Positions 28 to 63,429 of a stretch of DNA of 64,000 bases are shown piece by piece. Both the position numbers and the translations under genes were made by a program. The DNA is from Heptranchias perlo. Taxonomy: Eukaryota. The notes beneath the pieces were generated by a model. It was given only the letters and a program-made list of their open reading frames with translations, made no database searches and was not told where the DNA came from. The stretch spans positions 19,096,001-19,160,000 of the forward strand of contig NC_090357.1 in the NCBI RefSeq assembly GCF_035084215.1, written 5' to 3'. Position 1 is the first letter of the stretch; every line of letters begins with the position of its first letter.

Positions 28-267
28 CTGATGGAATAAAATAAGTTTGTCATTTTCAGTTTGGGTCCAGTTAGTAATTCTTTTAACATAAATGGGAAAC
101 GTCAAAAACTAAATTTAAACAATGCTGAATTTTAAATATTGTTTCTATTGGATCTGATATAAATAACTGTTAAAATATTTGTATTCTTTTCCAGCTTTAA
201 TTCTAAACTATGTGACAGTTTGAGATCTGATATTCTGCAGTAATGTTCTTTTACTATGTTGAATTTG

Positions 268-412
268 GAGATGCCGGTGATGGACTGGGGTTGACAATTG
301 TAAACAATTTTACAACACCAAGTTATAGTCCAGCAATTTTATTTTATTTTTAGCTTGTGAATTTAAAATAAAATTGCTGGACTATAACTTGGTGTTGTAA
401 AATTGTTTACAA
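268..412. mobile_element. Penelope-like element, short palindromic insertion (family A) in intron 1 of gene B
   Basis: Inverted arms about 297-343 / 366-413, tail GGAGATGCCGGTGATGGACTGGGG on the left only, TSD TATGTTGAATTTG at 255-267 and 413-425. Confidence 0.85.
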
Positions 413-847
413 TATGTTGAATTTGTTGTTTTCTATATAAACCGTCCCAGACTGATCAGGATGTTGCCACAAGATCTTGTTTCCAGTTCTGTGAACTCGA
501 TGGTATCATTGAGCACTGTTCAATGAATGACCCACTTTTACTCAAGCTCCACACAACTTTAAATAATCCGACCCTTGTCGCAGTGTAAAGATTCACAATC
601 AATAAATACTCAAATTATTACCTCAACCTAAATGTAAGTTATGGAGAGGAGACTGAACCCAACCAACGTGATGTGGGGCTTTGAACAATAATCTTAAAGT
701 GTCCAAATGACACGGCTCTTTCTAACTTAGACTCTCTCTGCAGTTACACAGTCACAGAAAAATGCTGAAGTATTTTAAAAGGGGAATAGGATGCCTCTAA
801 AATCCATATCCTAGCTCTACGTTAATTTACCGATCAGAGTGACTTAC

Positions 848-896
848 CTCGAACTCCTGTTTGTAAAATCAAAAACAGCTTCAGCAAGAGTTGCAT
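848..896 (-). CDS. IgSF receptor paralog (gene B), leader exon MQLLLKLFLILQTGVR(G)
   Basis: ATG at 896, hydrophobic signal peptide, 49 nt (phase 1), consensus donor AG|GTAAGT. Confidence 0.8.
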
Positions 897-1942
897 ATTT
901 CACTGTTTCTGAACTTTCCTAAAGCTGTTTAAACTCTTGACTTGTAACCAGTTACCGTGTTGCTCCCGTCGTATTTTAGACATACGTGCGGGTGCTCCGC
1001 CCAGTAAATAATCCGCATTTCACCCCCGGACCGGCATAAACTGCGAAATGCCATGAGTTTTGCCACAGTAAGGGAGGAAGTTACGTGGGAAGCGAAGAAA
1101 GGTTTTTTTTCTGAGTAATGGTTCAGCCGAGTTCTACCAGATGACGAGGATCCGTGTGAAGAAAGTTAAGATCTGACAGTGTCTGTCAAATAAATCGGAA
1201 TCCCACCACAGTATGCAAGATAGTTTCTGCTTCATGGAAACTGTATATCTGACCTGGAGTTCTGAATGCTACTTGGAATGACTTCGCTGCCACATTATCA
1301 CTTCAATTAGAATGCTGTGGACGTGCTACGAGTTTTACAACCACGGGTTTTTATTGCTTCAAATGATTATTTATTCCAGTTGATATTTTCTACCTGTAAA
1401 TACTTTTACAGAACAAATTCCTCACTTCCTAGAATTGCATCAGTTAAATTGATCAGAAGAATGTGTTTCTTTCTTTGCTGAAGTTACAAATACATGACAC
1501 TCCCCTGCCCAAGCAAAGCACAAAGGCTGCAGTGATCCTGCAGATAACAGTCTGCAGATTGGAGTTATACCACCTCAGTGCACCCCTCCAGCTCTTAGTA
1601 AAGAAAGAACTTGCATTTATATTGTGCCTTTCATGACCTCAGGACATCCCAAAGCGTTTTACAGCCAATAAAGTACTTTTGAAGTGTAGTCACTGTTGTA
1701 ATGTAGGAAATGCAGCTGCCAATTTGTGCACAGTAAAGTCCCACAAACAGCAACGTGATAATGACCAGATAATCTGTTTTTTTGGGGTGTTGGTTGAGGG
1801 ATAAATAATGTCCAGTGCACCTGGGTGAACACCCCTGATCTTCAAATAATGATGTGGAGATGCTGGTGATGGACTGGGGTGGACAAATGTAAGGAATCTT
1901 ACAACACCAGGTTATAGTCCAACAATTTTATTTTTTTTTAAA

Positions 1943-1980
1943 CCACAAGCTTTCGGAGATTATCCCCTTCGTCAGGTGAA
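1943..1980 (-). ncRNA. Minimal type I hammerhead ribozyme
   Basis: TTCAC-CTGACGA-A-GGGGA/TAA/TCTCC-GAAA-GC-TT-GTG on the minus strand. Confidence 0.8.
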
Positions 1981-2397
1981 TGAGTGAAAGATTCTCAAAT
2001 CGCATATCTTATATTAGGCTGGGACAGCATCACACCAATCAAAAGGTGTCGTTGTTGTTCAAACAGGCCAGTCGCGGAGAACAGCACGTCCCAGTACACT
2101 GGATATACATTGTGTCAATTACAGACAGAAAGAAAGAGACCCAAATGGCAGAGAGAGAGAGAATATTAAAACACATAACTTTTTTTTATGTTATGTGTTT
2201 TAATATTCTCTCTCTCTCTCTCTCTGCCATTTGGGTCTCTTTCTTTCTGTCTGTGTAATTGACACAATATATATCCAGTGTACTGGGTCGTGCTGTTCTC
2301 CGTGACTGGCCTGTTTGAACAACAACGACACCTTTTGATTGGTGTGATGCTGTCCCAGCCTAATATAAGATATGCGATTTGAGAACCTTTTCACTCA

Positions 2398-2436
2398 TTC
2401 ACCTGACGAAGGGGATAATCTCCGAAAGCTTGTGAT
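2398..2436 (+). ncRNA. Minimal type I hammerhead ribozyme
   Basis: Stem I TCAC/GTGA, core CTGACGA (2403-2409), stem II GGGGA-TAA-TCTCC, GAAA (2424-2427), palindromic AAGCTT stem III. Confidence 0.82.
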
Positions 2437-4269
2437 TTAAAAAAAATAAAATTGTTGGACTATAACCTGGTGTTGTAAGATTCCTTACACTTCTTCAAAT
2501 AATGCATGGGATCTCTTAGGTGCACCTGAGAGTGCAGAATGGGGTTCAGTTTAACGTCTCATCTGAAAGATGGCAGCTCCATCAGTGCAGTACTACCTCA
2601 GTATTGCACCGAAGTGTCAGCCTAGATTATGTGCATTATGAGTGTAACTTGAACCATGACCTACTGACTCAGGGGTGAGAGTGCTTCCAACTAAGCCATG
2701 GCTGACCCAAAAAACAGCTCAGTGCTTCGATGCATGTTGAGTGCCCCACTCTCTGGTGGTTAGTTTTGACTGTTATCAGGGGTGGTTGGGAGTATCTTCT
2801 TCCTCATAACAATAAAAAGACTCCATACAAAATTTTCACATTGTCCATTGGATGGAATTGCACTTTTAAAATGTGGCTTCTCACCATGTAGTTTGTGTGC
2901 ATTCAAACCATGTGAGATGGCTTTCTGGTCATACTTTCACACCACTTGCCTTTAGTGCGTTCCAGGGTCAGATTGTGAGCTGACCCCTTACTTACACTGC
3001 CACATTGATATCAATGCATATCTGAAACTGCTTTAAATTGGCACAAAGTCAAAGTATAACTGTAGCGTAATGGCACTGTCGGCTTTATCCCTGTGTTAAC
3101 AACCAGTGCTCCACCTTGTGCACAACTTTAATATAACATTGTTAGTTTGCTGATGAATTGGTGCAGCTCACTTGTAATGTCCCCTGTGGTAAAATAGCCA
3201 ATTGGCACTCACTGTCTGGGCTCAATGTAGAATAATGGCTACGTGGGCACAGGCTAAAGTATTCTGGCAAGGAAGCAATGCTTTCAGATAAAGTGGGGAG
3301 AAAATAATAAAAAAAATTCTGTTTTGGCAAAACAAGGGAATATCAAATAGGAATCTTATAAGAATCTGTTACTTTGTTGTAATAATCAAAGTGGACAATT
3401 TTCACCAGCTCCAGTGTGAACTGTGCCTCCTCCATATTTATTATGTGGGGTATAATTTTTATGCCAGTATTGTTTCATTTTAACATGATTTATTTAGTCA
3501 CTTGGTTAGACAGTTCCTTAAAAATACGATAGGTGAGTGAGCAGGAAAGTGGGAATAGATGAGGTGGCTGATGTGGAGGAAAACCTTGGCACAAACTTAG
3601 TTTCTCCCTTCACCTTGCAGACTTAAACCTTGCTTTATCAAATTGCCTAAATATGCTCCAGGTTTCTGCATTAAAGCCCTACAAATGTACTTAATTTACA
3701 TCATAGATTCACTCTGAGAGCAAAAGATTCTTAAAAGATTCAATCAGGTAGGGAATTCCGCTTTAACTATTAGGACTGTGTTCTGATCCTTGGTAAATCC
3801 AAAAACCACAATAACAGAACTGGGGTAGGAAACAATAGCAGACGAGAATACCAGACTAACACCATCAAACAGAGAAGTGGCACTGATCTGCACCATGTAC
3901 ATAACACCAACTAATGACTGGATCATTTATTTGGGGGCCACGCTGCTTCTTGTTACATTTACAACTTCTTTTCCTTTTTAAACAGGTACTTCCAGATCCC
4001 ACTCTTCCATCCATTAATTCTCAATAGATGAAGAGGTCTATCTGAATATTTGTAAATTATAGACATGAAATTCCCCTCGGCAGAAAAGTGGATTTTGAGC
4101 ACAGTTTTTTTTGTGGATTTTGTGCCATTCTGAATGTTCCACTGAACGTTTATGGTAGAAACTATTAACCAGTACCATTGAAAACTATCAGTTCAACCAA
4201 CTAAGAGGGCAGATTCAATCTGCTTTAGACTTCTGCCTTCCCGACAACATCATTGTGGTACAGCCTTTT

Positions 4270-13516: not shown

Positions 13517-13902
13517 AATGGTTTTGTTTATCAGCAATAACATAAATAGATGCAAGTCACCTCCTCTTAATCTGTCAGATAGCCTCTTAATTTGGTAGTT
13601 ATTCTTCAGATCGTGTTGTGTATTCGGCTTCAAGGCAAAGGCAAAAGAATTCCTTTAAAACAACTCACAGATGTCCATTATAAACTCACAGCACATTATC
13701 TGAGCTATAGTTTTATACGAACAAGATATAAAATAGAAATATGTTATGTGTGATGAAGGATGCGGCCCACATCCATCACACCTTTACAATGTTTTGCAAA
13801 TTAAATTGCTGGATAGGGTGATTTTTGTCAGTTCATGTCACAGAATGTCACCTTATCAATTCATGCATCAAATTAATCATTCTTTGTTTAATTTCTATTT
13901 AC

Positions 13903-14223
13903 CTTCCTGTTCAGCTTTTATCCAAACACTTGCGTTTCCCCAGCCGTAGCTGTTGTTTGCCGTACACCAGTAGACTCCGCCATCTTCAGACTGCAAATGT
14001 TTTATCTTTACTATTGAACTATTTAATTCAGCTGCGATTTGTAACATCTCAGTGTGGTTTTCCCTGTCCTTCATCCAGATCAAAGAGGATGCTGGGTTAC
14101 TATCCACAGAGCATCTCAGTTCCAGGAATGAGTCAGGAGGGACAATGATGGGACTGCTGGTCACAGGATGGTAACTGTCTGTGTTGTTCAACCTGTATAT
14201 TATTTTGGGATCTTGTGGTCCAT
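13903..14223 (-). CDS. IgSF receptor gene A, exon 4: C2/I-set Ig domain
   Basis: AG at 14225-14224, GT at 13902-13901, 321 nt, phase 1-1. (Y)GPQDPKI..LRCSVDSNPASSLIW..DGGVYWCTANNSYG..KAEQE. Confidence 0.9.
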
Positions 14224-14429
14224 CTAACAGTAAAATGGAATTAAAAGATTTGTACCATGCTAACTACATAGAAAAGAACCTGAATTTACTACATTTGCAG
14301 AAATATAATAACTGTAAATTAATTCATAAATATATACAAGTTCATAGAATCATAGAATCATAGAAGTTACAACATGGAAACAGGCCCTTCGGCCCAACAT
14401 GTCCATGTCGCCCAGTTTATACCACTAAG

Positions 14430-17378
14430 CTAGTCCCAATTGCCTGCACTTGGCCCATATCCCTCGATACCCATCTTCCCCATGTAACTGTCCAAATGCT
14501 TTTTAAAAGACAAAATTGTACCCGCCTCTACTACTGCCTCTGGCAGCTCGTTCCAGACACTCACCACCCTTTGAGTGAAAAAATTGCCCCTCTGGATCCT
14601 TTTGTATCTCTCCCCTCTCACCTTAAATCTGTGCCCCCTCGTTATAGACTCCCCTACCTTTGGGAAAAGATTTTGACTATCGACCTTATCTATGCCCCTC
14701 ATTATTTTATAGACTTCTATAAGATCACCCCTTAACCTCCTACTCTCCAGGGAATAAAGTCCCAGTCTGTCTAACCTCTCCCTATAAGTCAAACCATCAA
14801 GTCCCGGTAGCATCCTAGTAAATCTTTTCTGCACTCTTTCTAGTTTAATAATATCCTTTCTATAATAGGGTGACCAGAACTGTACACAGTACTCCAAGTG
14901 TGGCCTCACCAATGCCCTGTACATCTTCAACAAAACATCCCAACTCCTGCATTCAATGTTCTGACCAATGAAACCAAGCATGCTGAATGCCTTCTTCACC
15001 ACCCTATCCACCTGTGACTCCACTTTCAAGGAGCTATGAATCTGTACTCCTAGATCTCTTTGTTCTATAACTCTCCCCAACGCCCTACCATTAACGGAGT
15101 AGGTCCTGGCCCGATTCGATCTACCAAAATGCATCACCTCACATTTATCTAAATTAAACTCCATCTGCCATTCATCGGCCCACTGGCCCAATTTATCAAG
15201 ATCCCGTTGCAATCCTAGATAACCTTCTTCACTGTCCACAATGCCACCAATCTTGGTGTCATCTGCAAACTTACTAACCATGCCTCCTAAATTCTCATCC
15301 AAATCATTAATATAAATAACAAATAACAGCGGACCCAGCACCGATCCCTGAGGCACACCGCTGGACACAGGCATCCAGTTTGAAAAACAACCCTCGACAA
15401 CCACCCTCTGTCTTCTGTCGTCAAGCCAATTTTGTATCCAATTGGCTACCTCACCTTGGATCCCATGAGATTTAACCTTATGTAACAACCTACCATGCGG
15501 TACCTTGTCAAATGCTTTGCTGAAGTCCATGTAGACCACGTCTACTGCACAGCCCTCATCTATCTTCTTGGTTACCCCTTCCAAAAACTCAATCAAATTC
15601 GTGAGACATGATTTTCCTCTCACAAAACCATGCTGACTGTTCCTAATTAGTCCCTGCCTCTCCAAATGCCTGTAGATCCTGTCCCTCAGAATACCCTCTA
15701 ACAACTTACCCACTACAGATGTCAGGCTCACTGGTCTGTAGTTCCCAGGCTTTTCCCTGCCGCCCTTCTTAAACAAAGGCACAACATTTGCTACCCTCCA
15801 ATCTTCAGGCACCTCACCTGTAGCGGTGGATGATTCAAATATCTCTGCTAGGGGACCCGCAATTTCCTCCCTAACCTCCCATAACGTCCTGGGATACATT
15901 TCATCAGGTCCCGGAGATTTATCTACCTTGATGCGCGTTAAGACTTCCAGCACCTCCCTCTCTGTAATATGTACACTCCTCAAGACATCACTATTTATTT
16001 CCCCAAGTTCCCTAACATCCATGCCTTTCTCAACCGTAAATACCGATGTGAAATATTCATTCAGGATCTCACCCATCTCTTGTGGTTCCGCACTTAGATG
16101 ACCTTTTTGATCCTTAAGAGGCCCTACTCTCTCCCTAGTTACCCTTTTGCCCTTTATGTATTTGTAGAAGCTCTTTGGATTCACCTTTGCCTGATCTGCC
16201 AAAGCAATCTCATATCCCCTTTTTGCCCTCCTGATTTCTCTCTTAACTCTACTCCGGCAATCTCTATACTCTTCAAGGGATCCACTTGATCCCAGCTGCC
16301 TATGCATGTCATATGCCTCCTTCTTATTTTTGACTAGTGCCTCAATCTCCCGAGTCATCCAAGGTTCCCTACTTCTACCAGCCTTGCCCTTCACTTTATA
16401 AGGAATGTGCTTACCCTGAACCCTGGTTAACACACTTTTGAAAGCCTCCCACTTACCAGACGTCCCTTTGCCTGCCAACAGACTCTCCCAATCAACTTCT
16501 GAAAGTTCCTGTCTAATACCATCAAAATTGGCCTTTCCCCAATTTAGAATTTTAACTTTTGGGCCAGACCTATCCTTCTCCATAGCTATCTTAAAACTAA
16601 TGGAATTATGATCACTGGTCCCAAAGTGATCCCTCACTAACACTTCTGTCACCTGCCCTTCCTTATTTCCCAAGAGGAGGTCAAGTTTTGCCCCCTCTCT
16701 AGTCGGGCCATCCACATACTGAATGAGAAATTCCTCCTGAATACACTCAACAAATTTCTCTCCATCCAAGCCCCTAATGCTATGGCTGTCCCAGTCAATG
16801 TTGGGAAAGTTAAAGTCCCCTACTATTACCACCCTATTTTTCTTGCAGCTGTCTGTAATCTCCTTACATATTTGCTCCTCAATTTCCCGTTGACTATTTG
16901 GGGGTCTGTAGTACAATCCTATCAAAGTGATCTCTCCCTTCTTATTTTTCAGTTCTACCCATATGGACTCAGTGGGCGAACCCTCGGATATATCCCCTCT
17001 CACTACTGCCGTGATGTTCTCCCTAATCAAGAACGCAACTCCCCCTCCTCTCTTACCTCCTGCTCTATCTTTCCTATAGCATCTGTACCCTGGAACATTG
17101 AGCTGCCAGTCCTGCCCCTCCCTTAGCCATGTTTCAGTAATAGCTATAACATCCCAGTCCCATGTACTCATCCATGCCCTGAGTTCATCTGCCTTGCCCA
17201 TCAGACTTCTTGCATTGAAATAAATGCAGTTTAATCTAGACTTCCCTTGGTCTTTGCCCTGCTTTCTCAGACCATCTGTCCGGTCATGTTCTGTACACTC
17301 TCCCTTACTGCCTTTTGTTTCTGTCACCACTTTATTTCCCACTGACTTCCTGCATCGGTTCCCATCCCCCTGCCACAT
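14430..17378 (-). CDS. CR1 ORF2: AP endonuclease + reverse transcriptase (982 aa from the ATG overlapping the ORF1 stop)
   Basis: YFNARSL, ITETW, GDFN and SDH endonuclease motifs; QGSVLGP and FADDTK RT motifs; no stops. Confidence 0.93.
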   Translation of the reverse strand: MWQGDGNRCRKSVGNKVVTETKGSKGECTEHDRTDGLRKQGKDQGKSRLNCIYFNARSLMGKADELRAWMSTWDWDVIAITETWLREGQDWQLNVPGYRCYRKDRAGGKRGGGVAFLIRENITAVVRGDISEGSPTESIWVELKNKKGEITLIGLYYRPPNSQREIEEQICKEITDSCKKNRVVIVGDFNFPNIDWDSHSIRGLDGEKFVECIQEEFLIQYVDGPTREGAKLDLLLGNKEGQVTEVLVRDHFGTSDHNSISFKIAMEKDRSGPKVKILNWGKANFDGIRQELSEVDWESLLAGKGTSGKWEAFKSVLTRVQGKHIPYKVKGKAGRSREPWMTREIEALVKNKKEAYDMHRQLGSSGSLEEYRDCRSRVKREIRRAKRGYEIALADQAKVNPKSFYKYIKGKRVTRERVGPLKDQKGHLSAEPQEMGEILNEYFTSVFTVEKGMDVRELGEINSDVLRSVHITEREVLEVLTRIKVDKSPGPDEMYPRTLWEVREEIAGPLAEIFESSTATGEVPEDWRVANVVPLFKKGGREKPGNYRPVSLTSVVGKLLEGILRDRIYRHLERQGLIRNSQHGFVRGKSCLTNLIEFLEGVTKKIDEGCAVDVVYMDFSKAFDKVPHGRLLHKVKSHGIQGEVANWIQNWLDDRRQRVVVEGCFSNWMPVSSGVPQGSVLGPLLFVIYINDLDENLGGMVSKFADDTKIGGIVDSEEGYLGLQRDLDKLGQWADEWQMEFNLDKCEVMHFGRSNRARTYSVNGRALGRVIEQRDLGVQIHSSLKVESQVDRVVKKAFSMLGFIGQNIECRSWDVLLKMYRALVRPHLEYCVQFWSPYYRKDIIKLERVQKRFTRMLPGLDGLTYRERLDRLGLYSLESRRLRGDLIEVYKIMRGIDKVDSQNLFPKVGESITRGHRFKVRGERYKRIQRGNFFTQRVVSVWNELPEAVVEAGTILSFKKHLDSYMGKMGIEGYGPSAGNWD

Positions 17379-17780
17379 TAGTTTAAACCCTCCCCAACAG
17401 CACTGGCAAACACTCCCCCTAGGACATTGGTTCCAGTCCTGCCCAGATGCAGACCGTCCAATTTGTACTGGTCCCACCTCCCCCAGAACCGGTTCCAATG
17501 GCCCAGGAATTTGAATCCCTCCAGCTTGCACCATCTCTCAAGCCACGTATTCATCTTAGCTATCCTGTCATTCCTACTCTGACTAACCCGTGGCACTGGT
17601 AGCAATCCTGAGATTACTACCTTTGAGGTCCTACTCTTTAGTTTAACTCCTAACTCCCTAAATTCAGCTTGTAGGACCTCATCCTGTTTTTTACCTATGT
17701 CGTTGGTGCCTATATGCACCACGACAACTGGCTGTTCACCCTCCCCCTCCAGAATGTCCTGCAGCCGCTCCGAGACATCA
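17378..17780 (-). CDS. CR1 ORF1 C-terminal part (SGNH/GDSL esterase-like), 5'-truncated
   Basis: VHIGTND and DGLH motifs; ends GEGLN*. Confidence 0.88.
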
Positions 17781-19034: not shown

Positions 19035-19089
19035 TTTCATGCAGTTGAACGCAACAACCATTCAAGGCCAGAGGTATCCCAAACCCTCC

Positions 19090-19400: not shown

Positions 19401-19516
19401 TGTAAACTAAACCACAGACGAAAGTGGAATTGCTAATCGGACAGTGAGCATTTTTCTTATACCCTATATTCTTAAACATTACTAAAAATAACAATAATGT
19501 TAAGGATAATACTCAC

Positions 19517-19819
19517 ACAAAACATGTAGAATGACCTCATTTATTACTGGCTGTCTGAAAGTCACATGATTGATCTGACATCTACAGACGGTTCCGTGGT
19601 CTCTCACTTTAGGGACGATCTCAAGTCGGTTGGTGACAACAGATGTACCATCACCAGTTCTTTTTGTGATCAGTGTAGTGACGTTTGTGGAGATGTTTAT
19701 TCCATGACATGCCCAAATAAAGGAGATATTCTCAGAGTACAACCCCTTTGCAGAACAGGTCAGGCTGGACTTACGTCCAGCAACCAAAGCACCATCTACA
19801 ATAGAAACTTCAGGAGGTT
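19517..19819 (-). CDS. IgSF receptor gene A, exon 3: C1-like (SIRP/CD80-type constant) Ig domain
   Basis: AG at 19821-19820, donor GTGAGT at 19516, 303 nt, phase 1-1. LTCSAKGLYSENISFIW...VCRCQINHVTF. Confidence 0.9.
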
Positions 19820-20139
19820 CTGAGAGAGAGGACAAAACAGAATATATGAAACTATAAAGAACATATTCTACAGTGAATATTTATTAACATCATGTCCAGT
19901 GAAGTTAATGGCAACATTATTAGAGATTCATAGTGCTGCCATTCTGAAAATGTATTGAGTATCATAATGTAAAATAATTTATAGCTGAATAAATAGTTAA
20001 TTTTAAATTTAAATACACTTCGTTGTAGTTTCATGCAGAACCTGTTATTTTGGTTCAATGGAGACACAGCAGTAGTTAAAGTAGCCTTTTCTCTAGATCA
20101 AAAGAATCAAGAAACATAATATATGTTAGAGAATTACAC

Positions 20140-40600: not shown

Positions 40601-40699
40601 GGTTTCTTTCTATGCTTTTATTTTCTGATCATCCACTCTAGATACTGCTGTTTTGGTTCTTGAACACCAAGTTATAGTCCAACAAATTTATTTTAAATT

Positions 40700-40737
40700 C
40701 CACAAGCTTTCGGAGGCTTCCTCCTTCCTCAGGTGAA
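40700..40737 (-). ncRNA. Minimal type I hammerhead ribozyme
   Basis: Reverse complement of 40791-40829. Confidence 0.8.
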
Positions 40738-40790
40738 CGGTGTGGAAACTGTTGTTCGCTGCTTGTATTGTTTTTTCCATTTCCACACCG

Positions 40791-40829
40791 TTCACCTGAG
40801 GAAGGAGGAAGCCTCCGAAAGCTTGTGGA
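40791..40829 (+). ncRNA. Minimal type I hammerhead ribozyme
   Basis: TTCAC-CTGAGGA-A-GGAGG/AAG/CCTCC-GAAA-GC-TT-GTGGA. Confidence 0.82.
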
Positions 40830-41164
40830 ATTTAAAATAAATTTGTTGGACTATAACTTGGTGTTGTAAAATTGTTTACAATTGTCAACCCCAGTCCATC
40901 ACCGGCATCTCCACATCTTGGTTCTTGAAGTTATCAGTATTTCGATTCATTTACTGTATCACCGGTTACTGCACCACCTGCTGGTCACATACAGTGCCAT
41001 CTGTGACATCTGGCTGCAGAAGACTGTTGTTCGCTGCTTGTATTGTTTTTTGAAACAGCAACAGTTTTTGGTTTTGATATTCATATTATGTCAACTAGCA
41101 AACTCACAAACACCGATGAATAATTTTTTAAAAAGCTGTCAACTCAGAAAACGACCAACAACCA

Positions 41165-42300
41165 ATGAACAAATTTGTGGACGACACCAAATTGGGGGGT
41201 GTAGTTAATACAAAGGAAGAATGCGCCAAAAGGCAAGAAGTCATTAATAAGCTTGCGGAATGGGCGTGTAATTGGCAAATGGATTTCAATATAGATAAGC
41301 TTGAGGTGGTGCATTTTGGTAGGAAGAATAAGGAGGCCACATACTGCTTGGATAATAAGAGTTTAAATGGGGTAGAGAAGGAAAGGGATCTAGGGGTACA
41401 GATACACAAATCACTAAATGTGGAGATGCCGGTGATGGACTGGGGTGGACAAATAGGGAATCTTACAACACCAGGTTATAGTCCAACAGTTTTATTTGAA
41501 AATCACAAGCTTTCGGAGGCTTTCTCCTTCGAAGGAGAAAGCCTCCGAAAGCTTGTGATTTTCAAATAAAACTGTTGGACGATCACCTGGTGTTGTAAGA
41601 TTCCTTACAAATCACTAAAAGTAGCGACACAGGTTAATAAGGCCATGTAAAAGGCAAATCAAACACTAGGATTCATTTCTAGAGGGACAGAATTGAAAAG
41701 CAGTGAAGTTATGTTAAGCTTGTATAGAACCTAGGTGAGACCACACTTGGAGTACTGTGCACAGTTCTGATCTCCATATTATAAAAAAGATATAGAGGTA
41801 TTGGAGAAGGTGCAAAAAAAATCCACAAAGATCATACCAGAACTGAGAGGATGTACTTATCAGAAAAGGCTGAACAGGCTGGGGCTCTTTTCCTAGAAAA
41901 GAGAAAGTTGAGGGGAGACCTGATAGGGGTCTTTAAGATAATGAAAGGATTTGATAGGGTAGACATAGAGAAAATGTTTCCACTTGTGGGGGAGTCTAAA
42001 ACAAAAGGTCATAAGTATGAGCTGGTCACTAATAAATCCAATAGGGAATTCAGGAGAAACTTCTTTATCCAAAGAATGGTAAGAATATGGAATGCGCTAC
42101 CACAAGGAGTAGTTGAGGCAAATAGCATAGATGCCTTTAAGGGAAAGCTAGATAAGTGCATGAGGCAGAAAGGAATAGAAGGATATGCTGATAGGGCTGT
42201 ATGAAGAGGGGTGGGAGGAGGCTCTTGTGGAGCATAAATGCCGGCATAGTCCAGTTGTGTCGAATGACCTGTTACTGTGCTGTAGATTCGATGTAACTCA
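41165..42300 (+). mobile_element. CR1 3' fragment interrupted by a Penelope-like insertion
   Basis: KFVDDTKLGG..., LRGDLIGVFKIMKG, WNALP. Confidence 0.9.
41419..41606. mobile_element. Penelope-like palindromic insertion (family A), loop-less centre
   Basis: Centre CTCCTTC|GAAGGAG at 41530/41531, tail on the left, TSD ACAAATCACTAAA at 41406-41418 and 41607-41619. Confidence 0.92.
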
Positions 42301-42337: not shown

Positions 42338-43088
42338 CTGCTCTGAGATGACTAAATAAATTGCATTTTTTTGCAGCATGGGATTTCAGAACTGTTTACA
42401 AAGTTTTGGGGATTGAATTCTGCAGTTGTGCTTGTTTTACAGTGAAAATTAAACCGAAAAATGTTGAGTGGAGCAGACTAGGCCCGTAGGCAAGTCCAGC
42501 GACTGCACAACATCATCAACGTCATCTGTGCAAGGGGTACATCTCCAGAAATTGCCAGACACTCGAAGGCAGTCCCTTATAATGCCATCTGAACACATCA
42601 TTGATGAAGACATTGAATAGGATGGGTGACAGTGGACAATCTTACCACACTCTTCTGTCAAGAGATATAAGCCCCAATTTTAACCTAACCACCCGATGAG
42701 AAGGTGGCGAGTTCGGATCGCTGGCCTGATTTGCAACCCGCTTCATTTTACGCTCTATTATCTTCAACGGAACGTGAAATCAGGCGGGGTGTAAATCGGA
42801 CATCTGTGCTGCACCCGATCCAATCTCGCGGGGCAGTTGTGTTCAGATGGCATTATGAGGGACTGCCTTCGAGTGTCTGGCAATTTCTGCAAATGTACCC
42901 CTTGCACAGATGACGTTGTGCAGTCGCTGGACTTGCCTATGGATCTAGTCTGCTCTACTCAACATTTTTCGGTTTCATTTTCACTGTAAAACAAGCACAA
43001 CTGCAGAATTCAATCCCCAAAACTTTGTAAACAGTTCTGAAATCCCATGCTGCAAAAAAATGCAATTTATTTAGTCATCTCAAAGCAG
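42338..43088. repeat. About 250-bp inverted repeat (42338-42597 / 42838-43088)
   Basis: Arms are reverse complements with scattered mismatches and one short indel. Confidence 0.93.
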
Positions 43089-43102: not shown

Positions 43103-43529
43103 ACAGGTTCACGGAGTCTCCTCTCGAACTTTTGGCTAACCTTAGAACTGGAATACACATCCTTGCTAAAATCCAAGATTTAACCATCCACTGCCACAGC
43201 TTTCAGCTTCTTCACGAGGGCTGCAGGAGGTATGAGAAAATCAATGAAAACAATGCAAGTGGATTTCCTGAGTCCTTCAATCTTGATAAAACCACAAACT
43301 GTTCTATATGTTCCTCGTGTACAAATTCCAACCTGTTCCTTTATGATTGCTCTGCAGGTTTACATACCATGTCAGGGGTATGCCATGACAATCCAAAGAA
43401 GCATCTTAAAAACCACTGATAGCAGCAAGATTCCTTGGTAATTTTGGGCCCACTAGGATTCCCCTTTTTGTTGATAGAATGCACAGTTCCACTCTGGGAC
43501 ACTGAGTGCATGGGTACCTTATAAAGGTG

Positions 43530-45776: not shown

Positions 45777-48700
45777 AAATCTAAGGCAAGTTTGTGGCAG
45801 CAGAGCTCGCACCAGTGATATGCTCCTCCTGTACCATGTGGGAAGTCATGGACACTATAGGTGTCCCTGGCGACCATGTATGCAGGAAGTATGTCCAGCT
45901 GCAGCTACTGACTAACCGTATTTCAGAGCTGGAGCTGTGGGTGGATTCACTGTGGAGCTTCCGCGATGCTGAGATTATCGTGGATAACACGTTCAGTGAG
46001 GTGGTCACACCGCAGGTAAAGATCACGCAGGCAGAAAGGAAATGGGCGACCGCCAGGCAGAGTAAAAGGACTAGGCAGGTAGAGCAGGAGTCCCCTGGGG
46101 CCATCTCCCTCTCAAACAGATATACCGCTTTGGATACTGTTGGGGGAGACGGCTTATCAGGGGAAAGCAGCAAGAGCCAAGTTCGTGGCACCACGGGTGG
46201 TTCTGCTGCACAGGAGGGGAGGAATAAGAGTGGCAGGGCTATAGTGATAGGGGATTCAATTGTAAGGGGAACAGATAGGCGTTTCTGTGGCCGCAAACGT
46301 GACTCCAGGATGGTATGTTGCCTCCCTGGTGCTAGGGTCAAGGATGTCACGGAGCAGCTGCAGGGCATTCTGGAGGGGGAGGGTGAACAGGCAGTAGTCG
46401 TGGTCCATATCGTTACCAACAACATAGGTAAAAAAGGGATGAGGTCTTGCAAGGTAAATTTAAGGAGCGAGGAGATAACTTAAAAAGCAGGATCTCAGTG
46501 CCATCTGCTAGTGAGTATAGGAACAGGAGAATAGACCAGATGAATGCGTGGTTGCAGGGATGGTGTAGGAGGGAGGGGTTTAGATTCCTGGGGCATTGGG
46601 ACCAGTTCTGGGGAAGGTGGGACCTGCACAAGCGTGACAGGTTATACCCGAGCAGGACTGGGACCGATGTCCTCGCAAGGGTGTTTGCAAGTGCTGTTGG
46701 GGAAGGTTCAAACTAGAATGGCAGGGGGATGGGAACCTGAGCAGGAAGACAGAGCAGGGGGAACAAGGATAGAAACAAAAGACAGAAAGGGAAGAAGCAA
46801 TAGTGGAAGGCAGAGAAAATAAGGGCGAAAAACAAATGGAGCCACAGTGCAAAATAAAACTAAGATGACTAGCAATCTTAAAAAGACAAGTCTAAAGGCA
46901 TTGTGCATTAATGCGCGGAGCGTTTGGAATAAGTTAGATGAATTAACAGCGCAGATAGATATTAATGGATATGATATAGTTGCGATTATGGAGACATGGC
47001 TGCAGGGTGACCAAGGATGGGAACTGAACATTCAGGGGTATTCAATATTTAGGAAGAACAGGCAAAAAGGGAGAGGAGGTGGGTTAGCATTGTTAGTAAA
47101 GGAGGAGATCAATGCAATAGTGAGGAAGGATATTGGCTCGGAAAATCACGATGTGGAATCTGTATGGGTGGAGCGAAGAAACACCAAGAGGTAGAAAACG
47201 TTGGTGGGGTTGTCTATAGGCCCCCAAACAGTAGTGGAGATGTAGGGGAGGGCATTAAACAGGAAATTAGAGATGCATGCAAGAAGGGTACAACTATAAT
47301 CATGGGTGACTTTAATCTACATATAGATTGGTCAAACCAAATTAGCAATAATACTGTGGGGGAGGAATTCCTCGAGCGTGATGGTTTTCTAGACCAATAC
47401 GTTGAGGAACCAACTAGAGAACAGGTGATCCTAGACTGGGTATTGTGCAATGAGAAAGGATTAATTAACAATCTTGCTGTGCGGGGTCCCTGAGGGAAGA
47501 GCGGCCATAACATGATAGAATTCCTCATTAAGATGGAGAGTGAAGTAGTTGAATCCGAAACTAAGGTCCTGAATCTAAATAAAGGTAATTATGAAAGTAT
47601 GAGGTGCGAGTTGGCTATGATAGATTGGGGAACTTTACTAAAAGGGATGACGGTGGATAGGCAATGGCTAATATTTAAAGAACGTGTGCAGGAATTACAA
47701 CAATTATTCATTCTTGTCTGGGGCAAAAATAAAACAGGAAAGGTGGCTCAACCGTGGATTACAAAAGAAATTAGGGATAGTATTAGATCCAAAGAGGAGA
47801 CATATAAAATTGCCAGAAAAAGAGGCAAGCCTAAGGATTGGGAACAGTTCAGAATTCAGCAAAGGAGGACAAAGAGATTGATGAAGAGAGGACAAATAGG
47901 GTATGAGAGTAAACTAGCAGGGAACATAAAAACTGACTGTAAAAGCTTCTATTACTATGTCAAGAGAAAAAGATTAGTGAAGGCAAATGTAGGTCCCTTA
48001 CAGTCAGAAATGGGGGAAATTATAACAGGGAACAAAGAAATGGCAGAGCAATTAAATACATACTTTGGTTCTGTCTTCACAAGGGCGGACACACATAACC
48101 TCCCAGAAATGTTAGGGAACCAAGGGTCTAGTGAGAGGGAGGAACTGAAGGAAACCAGTATTAGTAAAAGAAAATAGTGCTAGGGAAATAAATGGGGCTA
48201 AAGGCTGACAAATCCCCAGGGCCTGATAATCTATATCCCAGAGTACTAAAGGAAGTGGTCCTGGAAATAGTGGATGCATTGGTGATCATCTTCCAAAATT
48301 CTATAGACTCTGGAACAGTTCCTACAGATTGGAGGGTGGCAAATGTAACCCCACTATTTAAAAAAGGAGGGAGAGAAAAAACAGGAAATTACAGACCAGT
48401 TAGCCTAACATCAGTAGTGGGGAAAATGCTAGAGTCTATTATAAAAGATGTGATAACAGAACACTTGGAGGGCATTAACGGGATTGGACAAAGTCAGCAT
48501 GGGTTTATGAAAGGGAAATCATGCTTAACAAATTTACTGGAGTTTTTTGAGGGTGTAACTAGTAGAATAGATAGGGGAGAACCAGTGGATGTGGTGTATT
48601 TGGATTTTCAGAAGGCTTTTGATAAGGTTCCACACAAGAGGTTAGTATGCAAAATTAAAGCACATGGGATTGGGGGGAATATACTGGCATGGATTGAGAA

Positions 48701-49745
48701 TTGGTTGAGAGACAGGAAACAGAGAGTAGGAATAAACGGGTCTTTTTCCGGGTGGCAGGCAGTGACTAGTGGGTACCACAGGGATCAGTGCTTGGGCCCC
48801 AGCTATTCAAAATATAGATCAATGATTTGGATGAGGGAACTAAATGTAACATTTCCAAGTTTGCAGACGACACAAAGCTGGGGTGGAACGTGAGCTATGA
48901 GGAGCATGCAAAGAGGCTCCAATATGATTTAGACAAGTTGGGTGAGTGGGCAAGAACATGGCAGATGCAGTATAATGTGGATAAATGTGAGGTTATCCAC
49001 TTTGGTTGTAAAAACAGAAAGACAGATTATCATCTGAATGGTGATAGATTGGAAAAAAGGGAGTTGCAATGAGACCTGGGTGTCCTTGTACACCAGTCGC
49101 TGAAAGCGAGCATTCAGGTGCAGCAAGCAGTTAGGAAGGCGAATGGTATGTTGGACCTCATTGCAAGAGGATTTGAGTACAGGAGCAGGGATGTCTTACT
49201 GCAGTTATACGGGGCCTTGGTGAGACCACATCTGGAGTATTGTGTGCAGTTTTGGTCTCCTTATCTGAGGAAGGATGTCCTTGCCATGGAGGAAATGCAA
49301 TGAAGGTTTACCAGACTGATTCCTGGGATGGCAGGACTGACGTATGAGGAGAGATTAGGTCGACTAGGCCTATATTCACTAGAGTTGTAACAGGACTAGA
49401 CAGACTAGATGCAGAGAGGATGTTCCCAATGGCTGGGGAGTCCAGAACCAGGGGTCACAGTCTCAGGATACAGGGTATGCCGTTTAGAACCGAGATGAGG
49501 AGAAATTTCTTCACTCAGAGGGTGGTGAACCTGTGGAATTCTCTACCACTGAAGGCATAGGAGTACAAGTCATTAGATGTATTCAAGAAGGAAATAGATA
49601 TATGTATTAATGCTAAGGGGATCACGGGATATGGGGGAAAAAGCGGGAACAGGGTACTGAGTTAGATGATCAGCCACGATCATTGTGAATGGCGGAGCAG
49701 GCCCAAAGGGCCGAATGGCCTACTCTTGCTCTTATTTTCTATGTT
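45777..49745 (+). mobile_element. Near full-length inactivated CR1 LINE, inverted twin of 27095-31590
   Basis: ORF1 45794-46716 and ORF2 fragments 46847-49660, highly similar to the minus-strand copy. Confidence 0.95.
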
Positions 49746-58682: not shown

Positions 58683-61179
58683 CAGAAATTTTGTTCAGCA
58701 CACTGTTGTAAATGACACAAACAGTAATGCAGGACCTGCCTAACCACTCTTTATATACTATTGCAACATTCTCCAAGTATTGGAAGTTTCAACAAACACG
58801 TACAATTGTACCAGCAGCCAGAAGCAATAATCCAGCCACTAACCTGCAACACCTGCATGATCCCTTTAAATAGCACTGGTGGGGGATCCTCAAGGCCGTC
58901 TAAGATGTGTTCAGCTGTTCCTGGTTAAGAAAGTTAATTGGCTGGAGCATTGAGTTCCAAAATGGTGTCTATCCCTTTAAATCAGCATTGCACACTGATC
59001 TAATGCACATTCTTCCTAATTTACATGATGCTGGCGTTCATTATCTGCATGTGTGCAAACGCCTTTACCAAAATAGCGTCTGACGCACAACATGCCAGAA
59101 GCATGGCGCATTCTGGATGCCATTTTGGGGCCTTAAGAGGCCGCGTAGTGCCAGAAAAACGGGTGCTACACAGCCAAATTTGTTTACAATAGCTCTTAAT
59201 AATAACTTGTGGTAAATAAGGTTGGTGAGCTGAAGGTTCAAGTCGCCACATGGGACTATGATATAGTGGCAATAACAGAGAGCTGGCTCAAAGAAGGGGA
59301 GGATTGGGTACTTAATATTCCTGGCTACAAGGTATTCAGGAAAGATAGGGAAGGAAAGAAAGGAGTGGGGGGGTGTGGCAGTATTGATCAAAGAAACTAT
59401 TCTAGCACTGGAAAGGGATGATATAGTTGAGGGGTCAAAGACAGAATCTATTTGGTTAGAATTAAGGAACAATAGAGGAGCTATTACACTACTGGGTGTA
59501 TACTAAAGGCTACCAAATAGTGGGAAGGAGGTAGAGGAGCAAATTTGCAGAAAAATCACAGAAAGATGCAAGAACTATGGAGTAGTGATAATGGGGGACT
59601 GCAATTATCCCAATATAGGCTGGGACAGTAATAGTGTAAAGGGCAAAGAGGGGGAGGAATTCCTGAAATGTGTTTGAGAGTACTTTCTGGAACAGTGTGT
59701 TTCCAGCCAACCAGGAAGGAAACAGTGCTGAATCGAGTCCTGGGGAATGAAGTGGGGCAGGTGGAGCATGTTACAGTGGGGGAGCATTTGGGGAACAGTG
59801 ATCATAATATCATTATGTTTAGAATAGTTATGGAAAAGGACAAGGAACTATCAATGTGAAAATGCTTAATTGGAGGAGGGCAAATTTCAGTGAGTTATAA
59901 GGGGATCCTGCCCAGGTGGAATGGAATCAAAAATTGGTAGGCAAAATAGTAATTGAACAATGGGAGGCCTTCAAGGAGCAATTGGTTCAGGACAAATTAG
60001 GGACAAAAAAGGAGATCTTCTTGTGGAGGCAGAGAGCACGTCTGAGGTGCTAAATGAATACTTCGCATCCATCTTCACTGGAGAAGTGGATGCTGCCATT
60101 GTAGCAGTAAAGGAGGAGGTAGTAGCGATATTGGATAGGATAAAAATAGATAAAGGAGGTACTTAAAAGATTGGCAGTACCCAAAGTAGAAAAGTGACCT
60201 GGTCCAGATGGTTCCATCCAAGGTTACTGAGGGAAGTAAGGGTGGAAATCATCCAGTCCTCCTTAGATATGGGGATGATGCTAGAGGACTGGAGGATTGC
60301 AAATGCTACGGTCCCTGTTCAAAAAAGGGGAGAGGGATAAACCCGGCAATTACATGCCAGTCGGCCTAACATCGGTGGTGGGGAAACTTTTAGAGACAAT
60401 AACCTGGGACAAAATGAATTGGCACTTGGAAAAGTATGGGCTAATAAATGAAAGTCAGCACAGATTTGTTAAAGGAAAATCACGTTTGACTAACCTGATT
60501 GAGTTTTTTGATGAAGTAACGGAAAAGGGTTCATGAGGGTAGTATGGCTGATGTTGTGTATATGGACTTACAAAAGACATTTGATGAAGTACCACATAAT
60601 AGACTTGTTAGCAATATTAATGCCCGTGAGATTAAAGGGACAGTGGCAGCATGGATACAAAATTGGCTAGGGGACAAAAAGCAGAGAGTAGTGGTGAACG
60701 GTTGTTTTTCAGACTAGAGGGAAGTATATGGTAGTGTTCCTTAGGGATCAGTATTGGGACCAATGCTTTTTTTGATATATATTAATGACCTGGACTTGGG
60801 TATAGAAGGTATAATTTCCAAAATTTGAGATGACACAAAACTCAGAAATGTAGTAAACAATGTGAAGGTTAGTAACAGACTTCAGGAGGACACAGACATA
60901 CTGGTGAAATGGGCAGACATGTGGCAGATGAAATTTAACGCAGAGAAGTGTGAAAAGTGTGAAATGCATTTTGGTAGGAAAAATAAGGAGAGGCAATATA
61001 AACTAAATGGTACAATTTTAAAGGAACAGAGACACCTTGGGGTGCACATACATAAATCTTTGAAGGTGGCAGAACAAGTTGAGAAGGCTGTTAAAAAAGC
61101 ATATGGGATCTTGGGCTTTATTAATAGATGTAAGGAATCTTACAACACCAGGTTATAGTCCAACTGTTTTATTTGAAAA

Positions 61180-61216
61180 TCACAAGCTTTCGGAGGCTTT
61201 CTCCTTCGTCAGGTGA
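61180..61216 (-). ncRNA. Minimal type I hammerhead ribozyme
   Basis: TCAC-CTGACGA-A-GGAG/AAAGC/CTCC-GAAA-GC-TT-GTGA. Confidence 0.8.
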
Positions 61217-61479
61217 GCGAGTGTGGGATTCCATGGAAGGTTACCGCATTTATATTCAGAGAACAATACCTGGTGATTACAGATAATCTTTCCAACTGCC
61301 CGTTGTCAAGGCAATCAAAGTGTTCAGACAGAGTGATGTTACCTACAGGACCACCGAATACACAAACGGCCAGAACACAAAACAGAGAGAGAGAGAGAGG
61401 GAGAAACATCCGAAAGGAAGAGAAAGACAGAGAATGACCCGTTGTGTTAAAAACAGATAACTTTTTTTCGCTGGTGGGG

Positions 61480-61760
61480 TTACGTGTAGCGTGACATGAA
61501 CCCAAGATCCCGGTTGAGGCCGTCCTCATGGGTGCGGAACTTGGCTATCAATTTCTGCTCGACGATTTTGCGTTGTCGTGTGTCTCGAAGGCCGCCTTGG
61601 AGAACGCTTACCCGAAGATCGGTGGCTGAATGTCCTTGACTGCTGAAGTGTTCCCCGACTGGGAGGGAACCCTCCTGTCTGGCGATTGTTGCGCGGTGTC
61701 CGTTCATCCGTTGTTGCAGTGTCTGCATGGTCTCGCCAATGTACCATGCTACGGGGCATC
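61480..61760 (-). pseudogene. C-terminal GIY-YIG endonuclease of a Penelope-like ORF (5'-truncated)
   Basis: CPVAWYIGETMQTLQQRMNGHR..VGEHF..RKIVEQKLIAKFRT..GLNRD. Confidence 0.9.
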
Positions 61761-62153
61761 CTTCAAGCGTACTCCAAGGCGGCCTTCGAGACACACGACA
61801 ACGCAAAATCGTCGAGCAGAAATTGATAGCCAAGTTCCGCACCCATGAGGACGGCCTCAACCGGGATCTTGGGTTCATGTCACGCTACACGTAACCCCAC
61901 CAGCAAAAAAAAGTTATCTGTTTTTAACACAACGGGTCATTCTCTGTCTTTCTCTTCCTTTCGGTTGTTTCTCCCTCTCTCTCTCTGTTTTGTGTTCTGG
62001 CCGTTTGTGTATTCGGTGGTCCTGTAGGTAACATCACTCTGTTTGAACACTTTGATTGCCTTGACAACGGGCAGTTGGAAAGATTATCTGTAATCACCAG
62101 GTATTGTTCTCTGAATACAAATGCGGTAACCTTCCATGGAATCCCACACTCGC

Positions 62154-62190
62154 TCACCTGACGAAGGAGAAAGCCTCCGAAAGCTTGTCA
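62154..62190 (+). ncRNA. Minimal type I hammerhead ribozyme (one stem I mismatch)
   Basis: CTGACGA at 62158-62164, GAAA at 62179-62182. Confidence 0.72.
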
Positions 62191-63429
62191 TTTTCAAATA
62201 AAACAGTTGGACTATAACCTGGTGTTGTAAGATTCCTTACATTTGTCAACCCCAGTCCATCACCGGCATCTCCACATCACATTTATTAATAGAGGCATAG
62301 AGTACAAAAGCAAGGAAATTATGCAAAACCTTTATAAAACACTGATTAGGCCTCAGCTGGAGTATTGTTTTCAAATCTGAGCACCACACTTTGAGAATGG
62401 ATGTCAAGGCCTTAGAGAGGGTGCTGAAGAGATTTATTAGAATGGTACCAGGGATGATGGACTTCAGTTATGTGGAGACACTGGAGAAGATCCTTAGAAC
62501 AGAGAAGGTTGAGGGGAAATTTGATAGAGGTGTTCAAAATCATGAACGGTTTTGATAGAGTAAATGAGGAAAAATTGTTTCTAGTGGCAGGAGGGTCGGT
62601 ATCCAGAGAACACAGATTTTAGGTGATCGGCAAAAGAGCCAGAGGCGACATGAGGAAACATTTTTTTACACTGCGAGTTGTAATGATCTAGAATGCATTG
62701 CCTGCAGGGGTGGTGGAAGCAGATTCAATAGTAACTTTCAAAGGGAATTGGATAAATACTTGAAGGGAAATACATTACAGGGCTGTGGGGAAAGGGCAGG
62801 GGAATGGGACTAATTGGATAGCTCTTTCAGAGCCAGCACAGGCACGATGGGCTGAATGGCCTCCTCCTGTGCTGTACCTACTATGATATGATTTAAAATA
62901 TTCATAATGTACTTTAACTATCATTTGATTATTATACAGCTGTCCTGTGATATTTTCAGTACAAAATAAAATATTTCACATGTTCTCTCCACCAAATAGA
63001 GGATACCTGACAGGATAATTATAAATCAGTAAAATAATTCCTCTTGACGCAGCATGTTCACACAGGTAGAACGAAAACAGAAAATGCTTGAAATACAAAG
63101 CATGACTGTCAGTCTCTGGAAAGAAAGAGGCGAATTCCCCTGCCTTTGGAGTTTGTGCCTGTAATAAGGCAAATAATTAGCTGCTGTCAGCATAGTGGTG
63201 CCACAGACTGAGCCGTTCCCTGTGCGACATTTTAAATCACCATGCCACTCACATTGGTAGTTAAAAATAAAAACAGTGCGTGGGTGATAGGGTTGCCAAC
63301 TCTGGTTGGATGTATTCCTGGAGGTTTCATCACATGACCTTCTGCCTCCAATCACCCGTTCAGTCAAACAAAATGTTTTAGGCGTGGCCTGCTGCTTAGA
63401 CAGAAAAGCTTGGAACTTCCTTTAAAAAA

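What the first reader, a model, noticed from the sequence alone, without database searches (positions are those of the whole stretch)
255..62293. Five Penelope-like insertions are all asymmetric palindromes, suggesting a stereotyped two-ended integration
Seen at 268-412, 1852-2491, 40665-40917, 41419-41606 and 61129-62281. Each is two 5'-truncated copies joined at their truncated ends with 3' ends facing outward, flanked by a 12-13 bp AT-rich TSD. Exactly one arm carries the terminal tail (GTC(A/C)ACCCCAGTCCATCACCGGCATCTCCACATC); the other stops about 30-50 nt short of it. Arm lengths range from about 50 to about 630 bp, yet the two arms of each insertion are similar in length. Established: Penelope-like elements encode RT + GIY-YIG and are known for inverted pseudo-LTRs and a short 3' tail. 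Inference: both nicked target strands prime reverse transcription, one at the RNA end and one internally, and the two cDNAs are then end-joined.
Basis: partly seen in the sequence, partly recalled or inferred. Interest (0 to 1): 0.8.

Follow-up and report, generated by a model that had tools for sequence, protein, structure and literature searches.

The report
Palindromic Penelope retrotransposon insertions in shark
Five broken copies of a known jumping gene each sit in the DNA as a mirror-image pair; the shape is already known, but the fine detail of the joins suggests that both cut ends of the chromosome copied the element's RNA and were then stitched together, a step nobody has yet shown.

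Summary
All five copies of this family in the window (a shark Penelope-like element, probably Neptune clade) are head-to-head palindromes with 12-13 bp target duplications, one tail each and five different centres. No single-armed copy was found. The architecture is published for Penelope-like elements, and cutting and extension of both target strands from two RNA start sites one tail apart was shown in vitro in 2024. That paper does not link this to palindromes; the published explanation is self-priming.

New here:
- In four of five insertions both arms stop within 0-12 nt of the same template position (E5: 154 nt).
- In two, each arm holds sequence the other lacks, so neither is a simple copy of the other.
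- One centre carries 29 nt copied from the flank.
- The tail-less arm starts at a foot of a conserved RNA hairpin.

Best reading (0.62): both nicked strands prime, the two cDNAs stop together and are end-joined. Main rival (0.27): fold-back plus later central deletion. Limits: n=5, no genome-wide count.

The parts
268..412 (.). E1: tail arm 268-346 (sense on -), 5-nt T filler 347-351, tail-less arm 352-412 (sense on +). TSD 255-267 / 413-425
   Evidence: the tail-less arm reaches 12 nt further into the element than the tail arm
1852..2491 (.). E2: tail arm 1852-2187 (sense on -), 2-nt filler 2188-2189, tail-less arm 2190-2491 (sense on +). TSD 1839-1851 / 2492-2504
   Evidence: the tail arm reaches 8 nt further (a T run)
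40665..40917 (.). E3: tail-less arm 40665-40748 (sense on -), 31-nt filler 40749-40779, tail arm 40780-40917 (sense on +). TSD 40653-40664 / 40918-40929
   Evidence: both arms stop at the same template base
41023..41051 (+). Donor of the E3 central filler: 29 nt identical to 40748-40776, 94 nt beyond the right TSD, same orientation
   Evidence: (E=1.3e-9); occurs only at these two places; best match to the E2 and E5 inserts is 8 nt
41419..41606 (.). E4: tail arm 41419-41531 (sense on -), tail-less arm 41530-41606 (sense on +); spacerless centre, arms share a CG. TSD 41406-41418 / 41607-41619; inserted in a CR1-like LINE relic
61129..62281 (.). E5: tail-less arm 61129-61763 (sense on -), 1-nt filler 61764, tail arm 61765-62281 (sense on +). 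TSD 61117-61128 / 62282-62293; inserted in a CR1-like LINE relic
   Evidence: the tail-less arm has 154 inner nt (61610-61763) absent from the tail arm
61480..61763 (-). C-terminal part of the GIY-YIG endonuclease domain (from just before the YIG motif to the stop codon)
   Evidence: Pfam GIY-YIG E=0.011, below the curated cut-off; 92% to the RT-bearing shark protein P0002
62158..62186 (+). Minimal hammerhead ribozyme motif; also at 2403-2431 (+), 40796-40824 (+), 1947-1975 (-), 40704-40732 (-), 61184-61212 (-)
   Evidence: 6 hits, all in the arms, against a mean of 0.08 in 50 block shuffles; stems
62208..62259 (+). Predicted RNA stem-loop across the tail boundary: outer stem 62208-62213 / 62254-62259, inner hairpin 62226-62241. 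Tail-less arms end at the 3' foot of the inner hairpin (4 of 5) or at its 5' foot (E3)
   Evidence: one G-C to A-U compensatory change between subfamilies; folding z-scores only -1.0 to -1.7
62242..62281 (+). Tail of E5 (30-40 nt extension present on one arm of each insertion)

Best explanation
These are aborted insertions of an endonuclease-bearing Penelope-like retrotransposon made by two-ended target-primed reverse transcription. (1) The GIY-YIG domain nicks both strands of AT-rich DNA about 10-13 bp apart, leaving two 3' overhangs [inferred from the TSDs; both-strand cutting shown in vitro for a relative]. (2) Both 3' ends are extended on the element RNA, one from the far end of the tail, the other from the foot of a hairpin 30-40 nt upstream [two start sites shown in vitro for a relative; assignment of one site to each end inferred here]. 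(3) The two cDNAs are coupled and stop at or near the same template base, most simply because both copy one RNA to a broken 5' end, or because one protein complex aborts both together [inferred]. (4) The two cDNA ends are joined by host end-joining, with trimming, microhomology or templated filler, and each serves as template for the other's second strand [inferred from the five centres]. The result is a one-tailed palindrome between TSDs. It works like L1 twin priming with a fixed second start site and fully overlapping arms.
For: Neither arm is a subset of the other in E1 and E5: the tail-less arm holds 12 and 154 inner nt that the tail arm lacks. The centres look like two-end joins: a 2-nt shared overlap with no loop (E4), 1-, 2- and 5-nt fillers (E5, E2, E1), and 29 nt copied from the flank followed by a 6-nt repeat (E3). 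TSDs are uniformly 12-13 bp; in L1, discrete TSDs mark insertions whose second end was primed, while end-joined truncated ones vary (PMC11702581, passages). Tail-less outer ends cluster within 3 nt of the hairpin foot in 4 of 5 and show 1, 0, 2, 3, 1 nt of microhomology to the target. Coupling: arm lengths from a common anchor are 31/43, 283/283, 84/84, 63/63, 460/618, the best of 120 pairings; 4 of 5 pairs stopping within 12 nt has p about 1e-4 to 2e-4 under two smooth independent-stop models; one tail in 5 of 5 has p at most 0.03 if arms choose independently. Across all 10 pairs of insertions, both arms of an insertion share its variants (82 fixed sites summed over pairs, 0 chimeric). Precedent: the anole Poseidon protein cleaves and extends both strands, starts at two sites separated by the tail and is predicted to be a dimer (PMC11167929, main text parts 1-2 of 4).
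Against: Only five insertions, and no genome-wide count. The same in vitro paper saw no difference in start site between the two strands, which alone would not give exactly one tail. Copying one RNA twice over its whole length needs strand displacement, which that paper does not mention (0 hits); in L1 twin priming overlaps are short (median 22 bp, 17% of cases; 10.1101/2024.08.27.596794). Equal inner ends are what fold-back predicts without any extra assumption. Fillers and asymmetric centres can arise after insertion, since palindromes lose their centres (review PMC8701086, passages). Three of five insertions stop in or within about 15 nt of the hammerhead, so shared pause sites may inflate the coupling statistics. 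E5, and one probable junction in a database protein (P0048, inner ends about 340 nt apart), show that long arms are not equal. Shared variants are also expected from fold-back, from arm-to-arm conversion or from one source locus being active at a time.
Confidence: 0.62

Rival explanations
1. Fold-back (self-priming). One target end primes a single cDNA from the tail. The cDNA folds back at its 3' end and copies itself outward, and is cut or stops at the tail boundary before being joined to the second target end. Later centre-break deletions and repair change the centre. This includes the published self-priming idea and the published idea that the endonuclease resolves the tail.
For: It explains at once equal inner ends, shared variants and one tail. 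E2 has a 10-nt loop that comes from the tail arm. Self-priming is the published reading of palindromes at PLE inverted junctions (PMC3846280 Discussion), and endonuclease resolution is the published reading of the tail (PMC8557442, passages). Both ends of the tail-less arms lie at feet of a hairpin that could also stall a DNA-templated copy. Central deletion of palindromes is common in mouse cells (PMC8701086).
Against: It needs a second event in E1 and E5 (tail-less arm longer inside), a loopless hairpin in E4 and a jump to flanking DNA in E3, so only 1 of 5 fits unaided. It predicts an end-joined outer end with variable TSDs, yet all five are 12-13 bp. It leaves unused the in vitro extension of both strands from two start sites.
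Confidence: 0.27
2. Two unrelated events or post-insertion duplication: a single-armed insertion later gained an inverted copy by a second insertion into itself or by replication template switching.
For: The anole protein also nicks its own ORF-pLTR junction. An unrelated 260-nt inverted duplication exists in the window at 42338-43088.
Against: One TSD pair encloses both arms and there is no inner TSD. No single-armed precursor was found among 5 copies. The tail-less outer end is stereotyped.
Confidence: 0.05
3. MITE-like or hairpin-RNA propagation: a ready-made palindromic unit moves as a whole.
For: Terminal inverted repeats with TSDs look superficially like a DNA transposon.
Against: Five different centres and lengths, at least three sequence subfamilies, unequal ends; the arms are PLE 3' ends with a hammerhead and an endonuclease fragment.
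Confidence: 0.03
4. Assembly or library artefact (read fold-back).
For: Palindromes are a known sequencing difficulty (PMC8701086). E1 and E3 arms are 100% identical.
Against: TSDs flank every case. Removing the insert and one TSD copy restores collinearity with CR1-like paralogues for E4 and E5 (no spanning paralogue for E1-E3). Arms of E2, E4 and E5 differ by substitutions and indels. All palindromes end at element-specific sites.
Confidence: 0.03

Closest known systems
Endonuclease-bearing Penelope-like elements, typical inverted-pLTR insertion (e.g. Pen2a_Av of Adineta vaga; D. virilis Penelope)
   Same: Head-to-head inverted 5'-truncated copy, tail of 30-40 nt on one end only, 8-10 bp TSD around the whole unit, palindromes at the inverted junction (PMC3846280; PMC8557442; PMC2377424). 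Paired minimal hammerheads 100-700 bp apart on opposite strands were noted in Schistosoma (PMC4209133).
   Different: Those descriptions say 'often' or 'optionally' and centre on long copies with one short inverted arm. Here 5 of 5 are short near-symmetric palindromes with 12-13 bp TSDs. I found no tabulation of coupled arm ends in the papers read.
PAc (Poseidon of Anolis carolinensis) in vitro system, PMC11167929
   Same: Both strands cut and extended, AT-rich targets, two RT start sites separated by the tail, start in an RNA stem-loop, hammerhead cleavage not needed (0 of 10 arms here stop at the predicted cleavage site).
   Different: Different clade (relatives of this element have the CX2-5CxxC linker that Poseidon lacks). 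The paper does not discuss palindromes or joining of two cDNAs and saw no strand bias in start site.
L1 twin priming
   Same: Both nicked ends prime, discrete TSD, inverted junction closed by NHEJ/MMEJ-like joins, templated insertions from nearby DNA, correlated product lengths.
   Different: In L1 the second priming site is opportunistic and the two cDNAs cover adjacent, almost non-overlapping stretches, giving an inversion. Here the second site is fixed near the first, the arms overlap fully and give a palindrome; there is no poly(A).

Membership tests
EN+ Penelope-like elements | C-terminal GIY-YIG endonuclease | tested here: met
   94-aa fragment in E5: Pfam GIY-YIG E=0.011, under the cut-off; 92% identical to the C-terminus of P0002, which carries an RT domain
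EN+ Penelope-like elements | RT and EN in one ORF | tested here: inconclusive
   No RT part in the window (tblastn with 4 relatives); met in relatives P0002, P0013, P0030, P0045
EN+ Penelope-like elements | Minimal hammerhead motif in the terminal repeat | tested here: met
   6 of 10 arms hold the whole motif; the other 4 are truncated in or before it. Rfam did not report it. Activity not tested.
EN+ Penelope-like elements | 30-40 nt tail, often on one end only | tested here: met
   5 of 5 have one tail; offsets 30, 34, 54, 36, 40 nt
EN+ Penelope-like elements | 5' truncation with an adjacent inverted truncated copy, whole unit in a TSD | tested here: met
EN+ Penelope-like elements | Partial tandem (direct pseudo-LTR) in full-length copies | tested here: inconclusive
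   No copy in the window is long enough to show it
Neptune clade | [quoted passage not shown] | tested here: met
   Present in 4 of 4 long relatives (definition in PMC8557442). The window fragment starts downstream of the linker, so this is by homology.
Neptune clade | Placement in the RT phylogeny (separates Neptune from Nematis, which shares the linker) | not tested
   No named reference PLE proteins were at hand. Neptune is preferred because it is reported from fishes.
L1-type twin priming | Discrete TSD and an inverted junction with end-joining marks | tested here: met
L1-type twin priming | Poly(A)-primed first arm, opportunistic internal second site, arms largely non-overlapping | tested here: not met
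   No poly(A); fixed second site; arms overlap over their whole shared length. Works like it, is not it.
L1-type twin priming | Both cDNAs made on one RNA molecule | not testable with these tools
   Shared variants and shared stops are compatible with it but do not prove it
MITE / foldback DNA transposon | Copies uniform, sharing centre and symmetric ends | tested here: not met
   Five different centres, asymmetric ends

The most novel reading that the evidence does not exclude
In this clade twin priming is the programmed, default mode of integration. One protein dimer holds both target ends on a single RNA, a stem-loop sets two start sites one tail apart and hands one to each end, and both cDNAs run over the same stretch (the second displacing the first) to the same RNA 5' end. 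Every insertion is therefore born as a one-tailed palindrome, and the inverted pseudo-LTR of long copies is the same product. This would replace self-priming as the explanation of PLE inverted repeats and make these elements a steady source of genomic palindromes and hairpin RNA.
Probability: 0.35. Interest if true: 0.72.

Novelty: new member of a known kind. Interest (0 to 1): 0.48.

Why it matters
How Penelope-like elements make their tandem and inverted structures is named as an open problem (PMC8557442), and the steps after priming are 'yet to be validated' (PMC11167929). Short palindromic insertions keep both priming ends and the closing joint within a few hundred bases, so counting them in one shark genome would test two-ended priming against self-priming with no bench work. 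If the coupled model holds, it is a retrotransposon whose normal route primes both target ends, which bears on RT-based genome writing and on palindrome and double-stranded RNA load in genomes rich in these elements. The shape itself would not surprise a Penelope specialist.

Tried and rejected
- More copies outside the window: an exact 26-nt tail scan of the bacterial and archaeal genome collection gave 0 matches, as expected.
- Head-to-head junctions in predicted proteins: an antisense-frame query gave 7 candidates, none significant. Of 61 distinct hits (P0048) had an antisense plus a sense part (45 examined, 16 more); the antisense match is only 15 aa (73%, local E=0.001) and its DNA could not be seen.
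- Rfam: only hairpin-driven miRNA-type matches below the gathering scores, no hammerhead; rejected as palindrome artefacts.
- Hammerhead cleavage as the cause of truncation: 0 of 10 arms end at the predicted site; rejected.
- A nick-site motif: none evident by eye beyond AT richness in 10 contexts.
- E3 filler as element sequence: best match to E2 and E5 is 8 nt. It cannot be wholly excluded, because the inner sequence of the E3 subfamily is unknown.
- Tail stem-loop: folding z-scores are weak (-0.4 to -1.7 over 5 folds). Pair counts on 10 related arms gave 95.8% paired and 5 of 500 shuffles as high, but they rest on about three subfamilies and a structure drawn from these same sequences.
- Errors corrected: one search timed out and was rerun; one search used mis-numbered columns and was replaced; two anchors were off and were fixed.
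- Two weak scan hits at 42375 and 43051 (8 mismatches of 26, wrong orientation) were rejected as chance.
- Literature not seen: Arkhipova 2006 is not held. Evgen'ev and Arkhipova 2005 and the Xena paper were not looked up. Supplementary figures S1-S2 of PMC11167929 gave labels only, so the start-site geometry could not be compared. Any of these may already describe short solo palindromes.
- No complex or structure prediction was run: it would not separate the models.
Full report
Observation. Such a repeat arose in 3 of 20000 random intervals once tandem repeats were masked (444 of 20000 unmasked). The repeats are AT-rich (49 of 63; p=0.0004 against the window). For E4 and E5, which sit in CR1-like LINE relics, removing the insert and one repeat copy restores collinearity with paralogues in the window, so these are true target duplications; E1-E3 had no spanning paralogue. 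Each insert consists of two arms whose sense 3' ends face outward, with 0/50, 6/294, 0/86, 3/86 and 6/478 mismatches. The tail occurs five times and the arm core ten times, and four kinds of search found no other copy. So 5 of 5 are palindromic, with a lower 95% bound of 0.55.

What the element is. The tail-less arm of E5 encodes the last 94 residues of a GIY-YIG domain, 92-95% identical to predicted proteins of the shark Heptranchias perlo and 76-87% to those of other named sharks among the top hits. The host is therefore very likely a shark (inference). Long relatives join an RT domain to this end and carry the CX2-5CxxC linker (4 of 4), which marks the Neptune and Nematis clades (PMC8557442, passages); I did not build a tree. 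Six arms hold a minimal hammerhead motif, against 0.08 per shuffled window, of the kind described for PLE terminal repeats (PMC4209133, parts 1-2 of 4). No RT sequence lies in the window.

Outer ends. Tail arms end raggedly over 9 nt. Tail-less arms end 30, 34, 54, 36 and 40 nt short of the tail end of the same insertion. In four of five that point is within 3 nt of the 3' foot of a 6-bp RNA hairpin (62226-62241 in E5), and in E3 it is at the 5' foot. The hairpin shows a G-C to A-U change between subfamilies and lies inside a second invariant stem. This support is modest: folding z-scores are -1.0 to -1.7 for the tail region and the alignment holds about three subfamilies.

Inner ends and centres. 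Measured from a common anchor, tail and tail-less arms run 31/43, 283/283, 84/84, 63/63 and 460/618 nt, the best of 120 pairings. In template terms the arms stop 12, 8, 0, 0 and 154 nt apart. Four of five within 12 nt has p about 1e-4 to 2e-4 under two smooth independent-stop models, though shared pause sites near the hammerhead could inflate this. None of the ten arms stops at the predicted ribozyme cut. All five centres differ: a 5-nt T filler (E1), a 2-nt filler (E2), 31 nt of which 29 are an exact copy of host DNA 94 nt beyond the right TSD, followed by a 6-nt repeat (E3), a loopless palindrome sharing a CG (E4) and a 1-nt filler (E5). In E1 and E5 the tail-less arm holds inner sequence missing from the tail arm, while the tail arm holds the tail, so neither is a plain copy of the other. 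Both arms of an insertion always share that insertion's variants (0 chimeric sites over 10 pairs).

Mechanism. Best reading (0.62): staggered nicks, extension of both 3' ends on the RNA from two start sites one tail apart, a coupled stop, and end-joining of the two cDNAs. Shown here: the anatomy. Shown elsewhere: the anole Poseidon protein cuts and extends both strands, starts at two internal sites whose interval is the tail, and does not need ribozyme cleavage (PMC11167929, main text parts 1-2 of 4; supplementary figures unreadable). Inferred: one site per end, the coupling and the joining pathway. The parallels with L1 twin priming are discrete TSDs, end-joining marks at the inversion and local templated inserts (PMC11702581, passages; 10.1101/2024.08.27.596794, passages and section 4 part 1).

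Main rival (0.27): a single cDNA folds back on itself, and the centre is altered later. It explains equal ends, shared variants and one tail without further assumptions, and is close to the published self-priming proposal (PMC3846280, parts 1-4 of 5). Only E2 fits it unaided, however. E1 and E5 need later deletions, which are common in palindromes (PMC8701086, passages), and uniform TSDs are not expected. Unit propagation as a MITE, serial events and artefact are each at or below 0.05.

Outside evidence is thin. A tail scan of prokaryotic genomes gave nothing. One of 61 database proteins (P0048) reads from an antisense into a sense endonuclease frame, which suggests a head-to-head junction at another locus with inner ends about 340 nt apart; with E5 this says long arms need not be equal. 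The genome-wide fraction could not be counted.

What is known and what is not. [quoted passage not shown] The finding is thus a new member of a known kind. In eight PLE-directed searches of the held library (listings and abstracts, plus the passages named here) I found no paper that explains PLE palindromes by two-ended priming or tabulates coupled arm ends. The 2024 paper has no passage on palindromes, and passages of 10.64898/2026.07.22.740005 and PMC12910113 added nothing. Subscription papers, among them Arkhipova 2006 (not held), were not seen. That PLE RT lacks RNase H and that templated inserts point to polymerase theta are recalled, not from a call.

Verdict. Real, correctly described, architecture known. 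The junction detail turns an acknowledged open question into a countable test and leans toward two-ended priming with coupled stops. Interest 0.48; the bold single-RNA version has probability 0.35 and would merit about 0.72.

Noticed in passing
window 42338-42597 and 42838-43088: A 260-nt inverted duplication (93%) of DNA found nowhere else in the window. The second copy lies inside a pair of short inverted termini near 42672 and 43100. No similarity to the Penelope arms.
   Followed up: partly
window 13895-14263, 19500-19880, 23303-23836 (- strand): Three immunoglobulin-domain exons (I-set, C1/C2-set, V-set) of a probable host gene; none of the five insertions touches them.
   Followed up: partly
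window 43423-45900: Tandem array with a 31-bp period, passing into a 50-bp period.
   Followed up: no
window 27200-31123 and 45795-49641: Two long CR1-like LINE copies in opposite orientation, 89-96% alike; many further CR1-like relics, one with a 1035-aa open frame at 14430-17537.
   Followed up: no
window 61760-61763; proteins P0001, P0008, P0025, P0036: Several shark gene models enter the endonuclease frame at the same residue, which suggests a cryptic splice acceptor; the inner end of the E5 tail-less arm lies 3 nt upstream of it. May be coincidence.
   Followed up: no
window 41449-41456: The E4 tail arm has a 2-nt deletion and substitutions right at the internal start site, where a second primer would have sat. 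Single case.
   Followed up: no
protein P0018: A Scyliorhinus torazame gene model reads through the terminal repeat and tail of a related element, which shows that the tail is conserved across sharks.
   Followed up: partly
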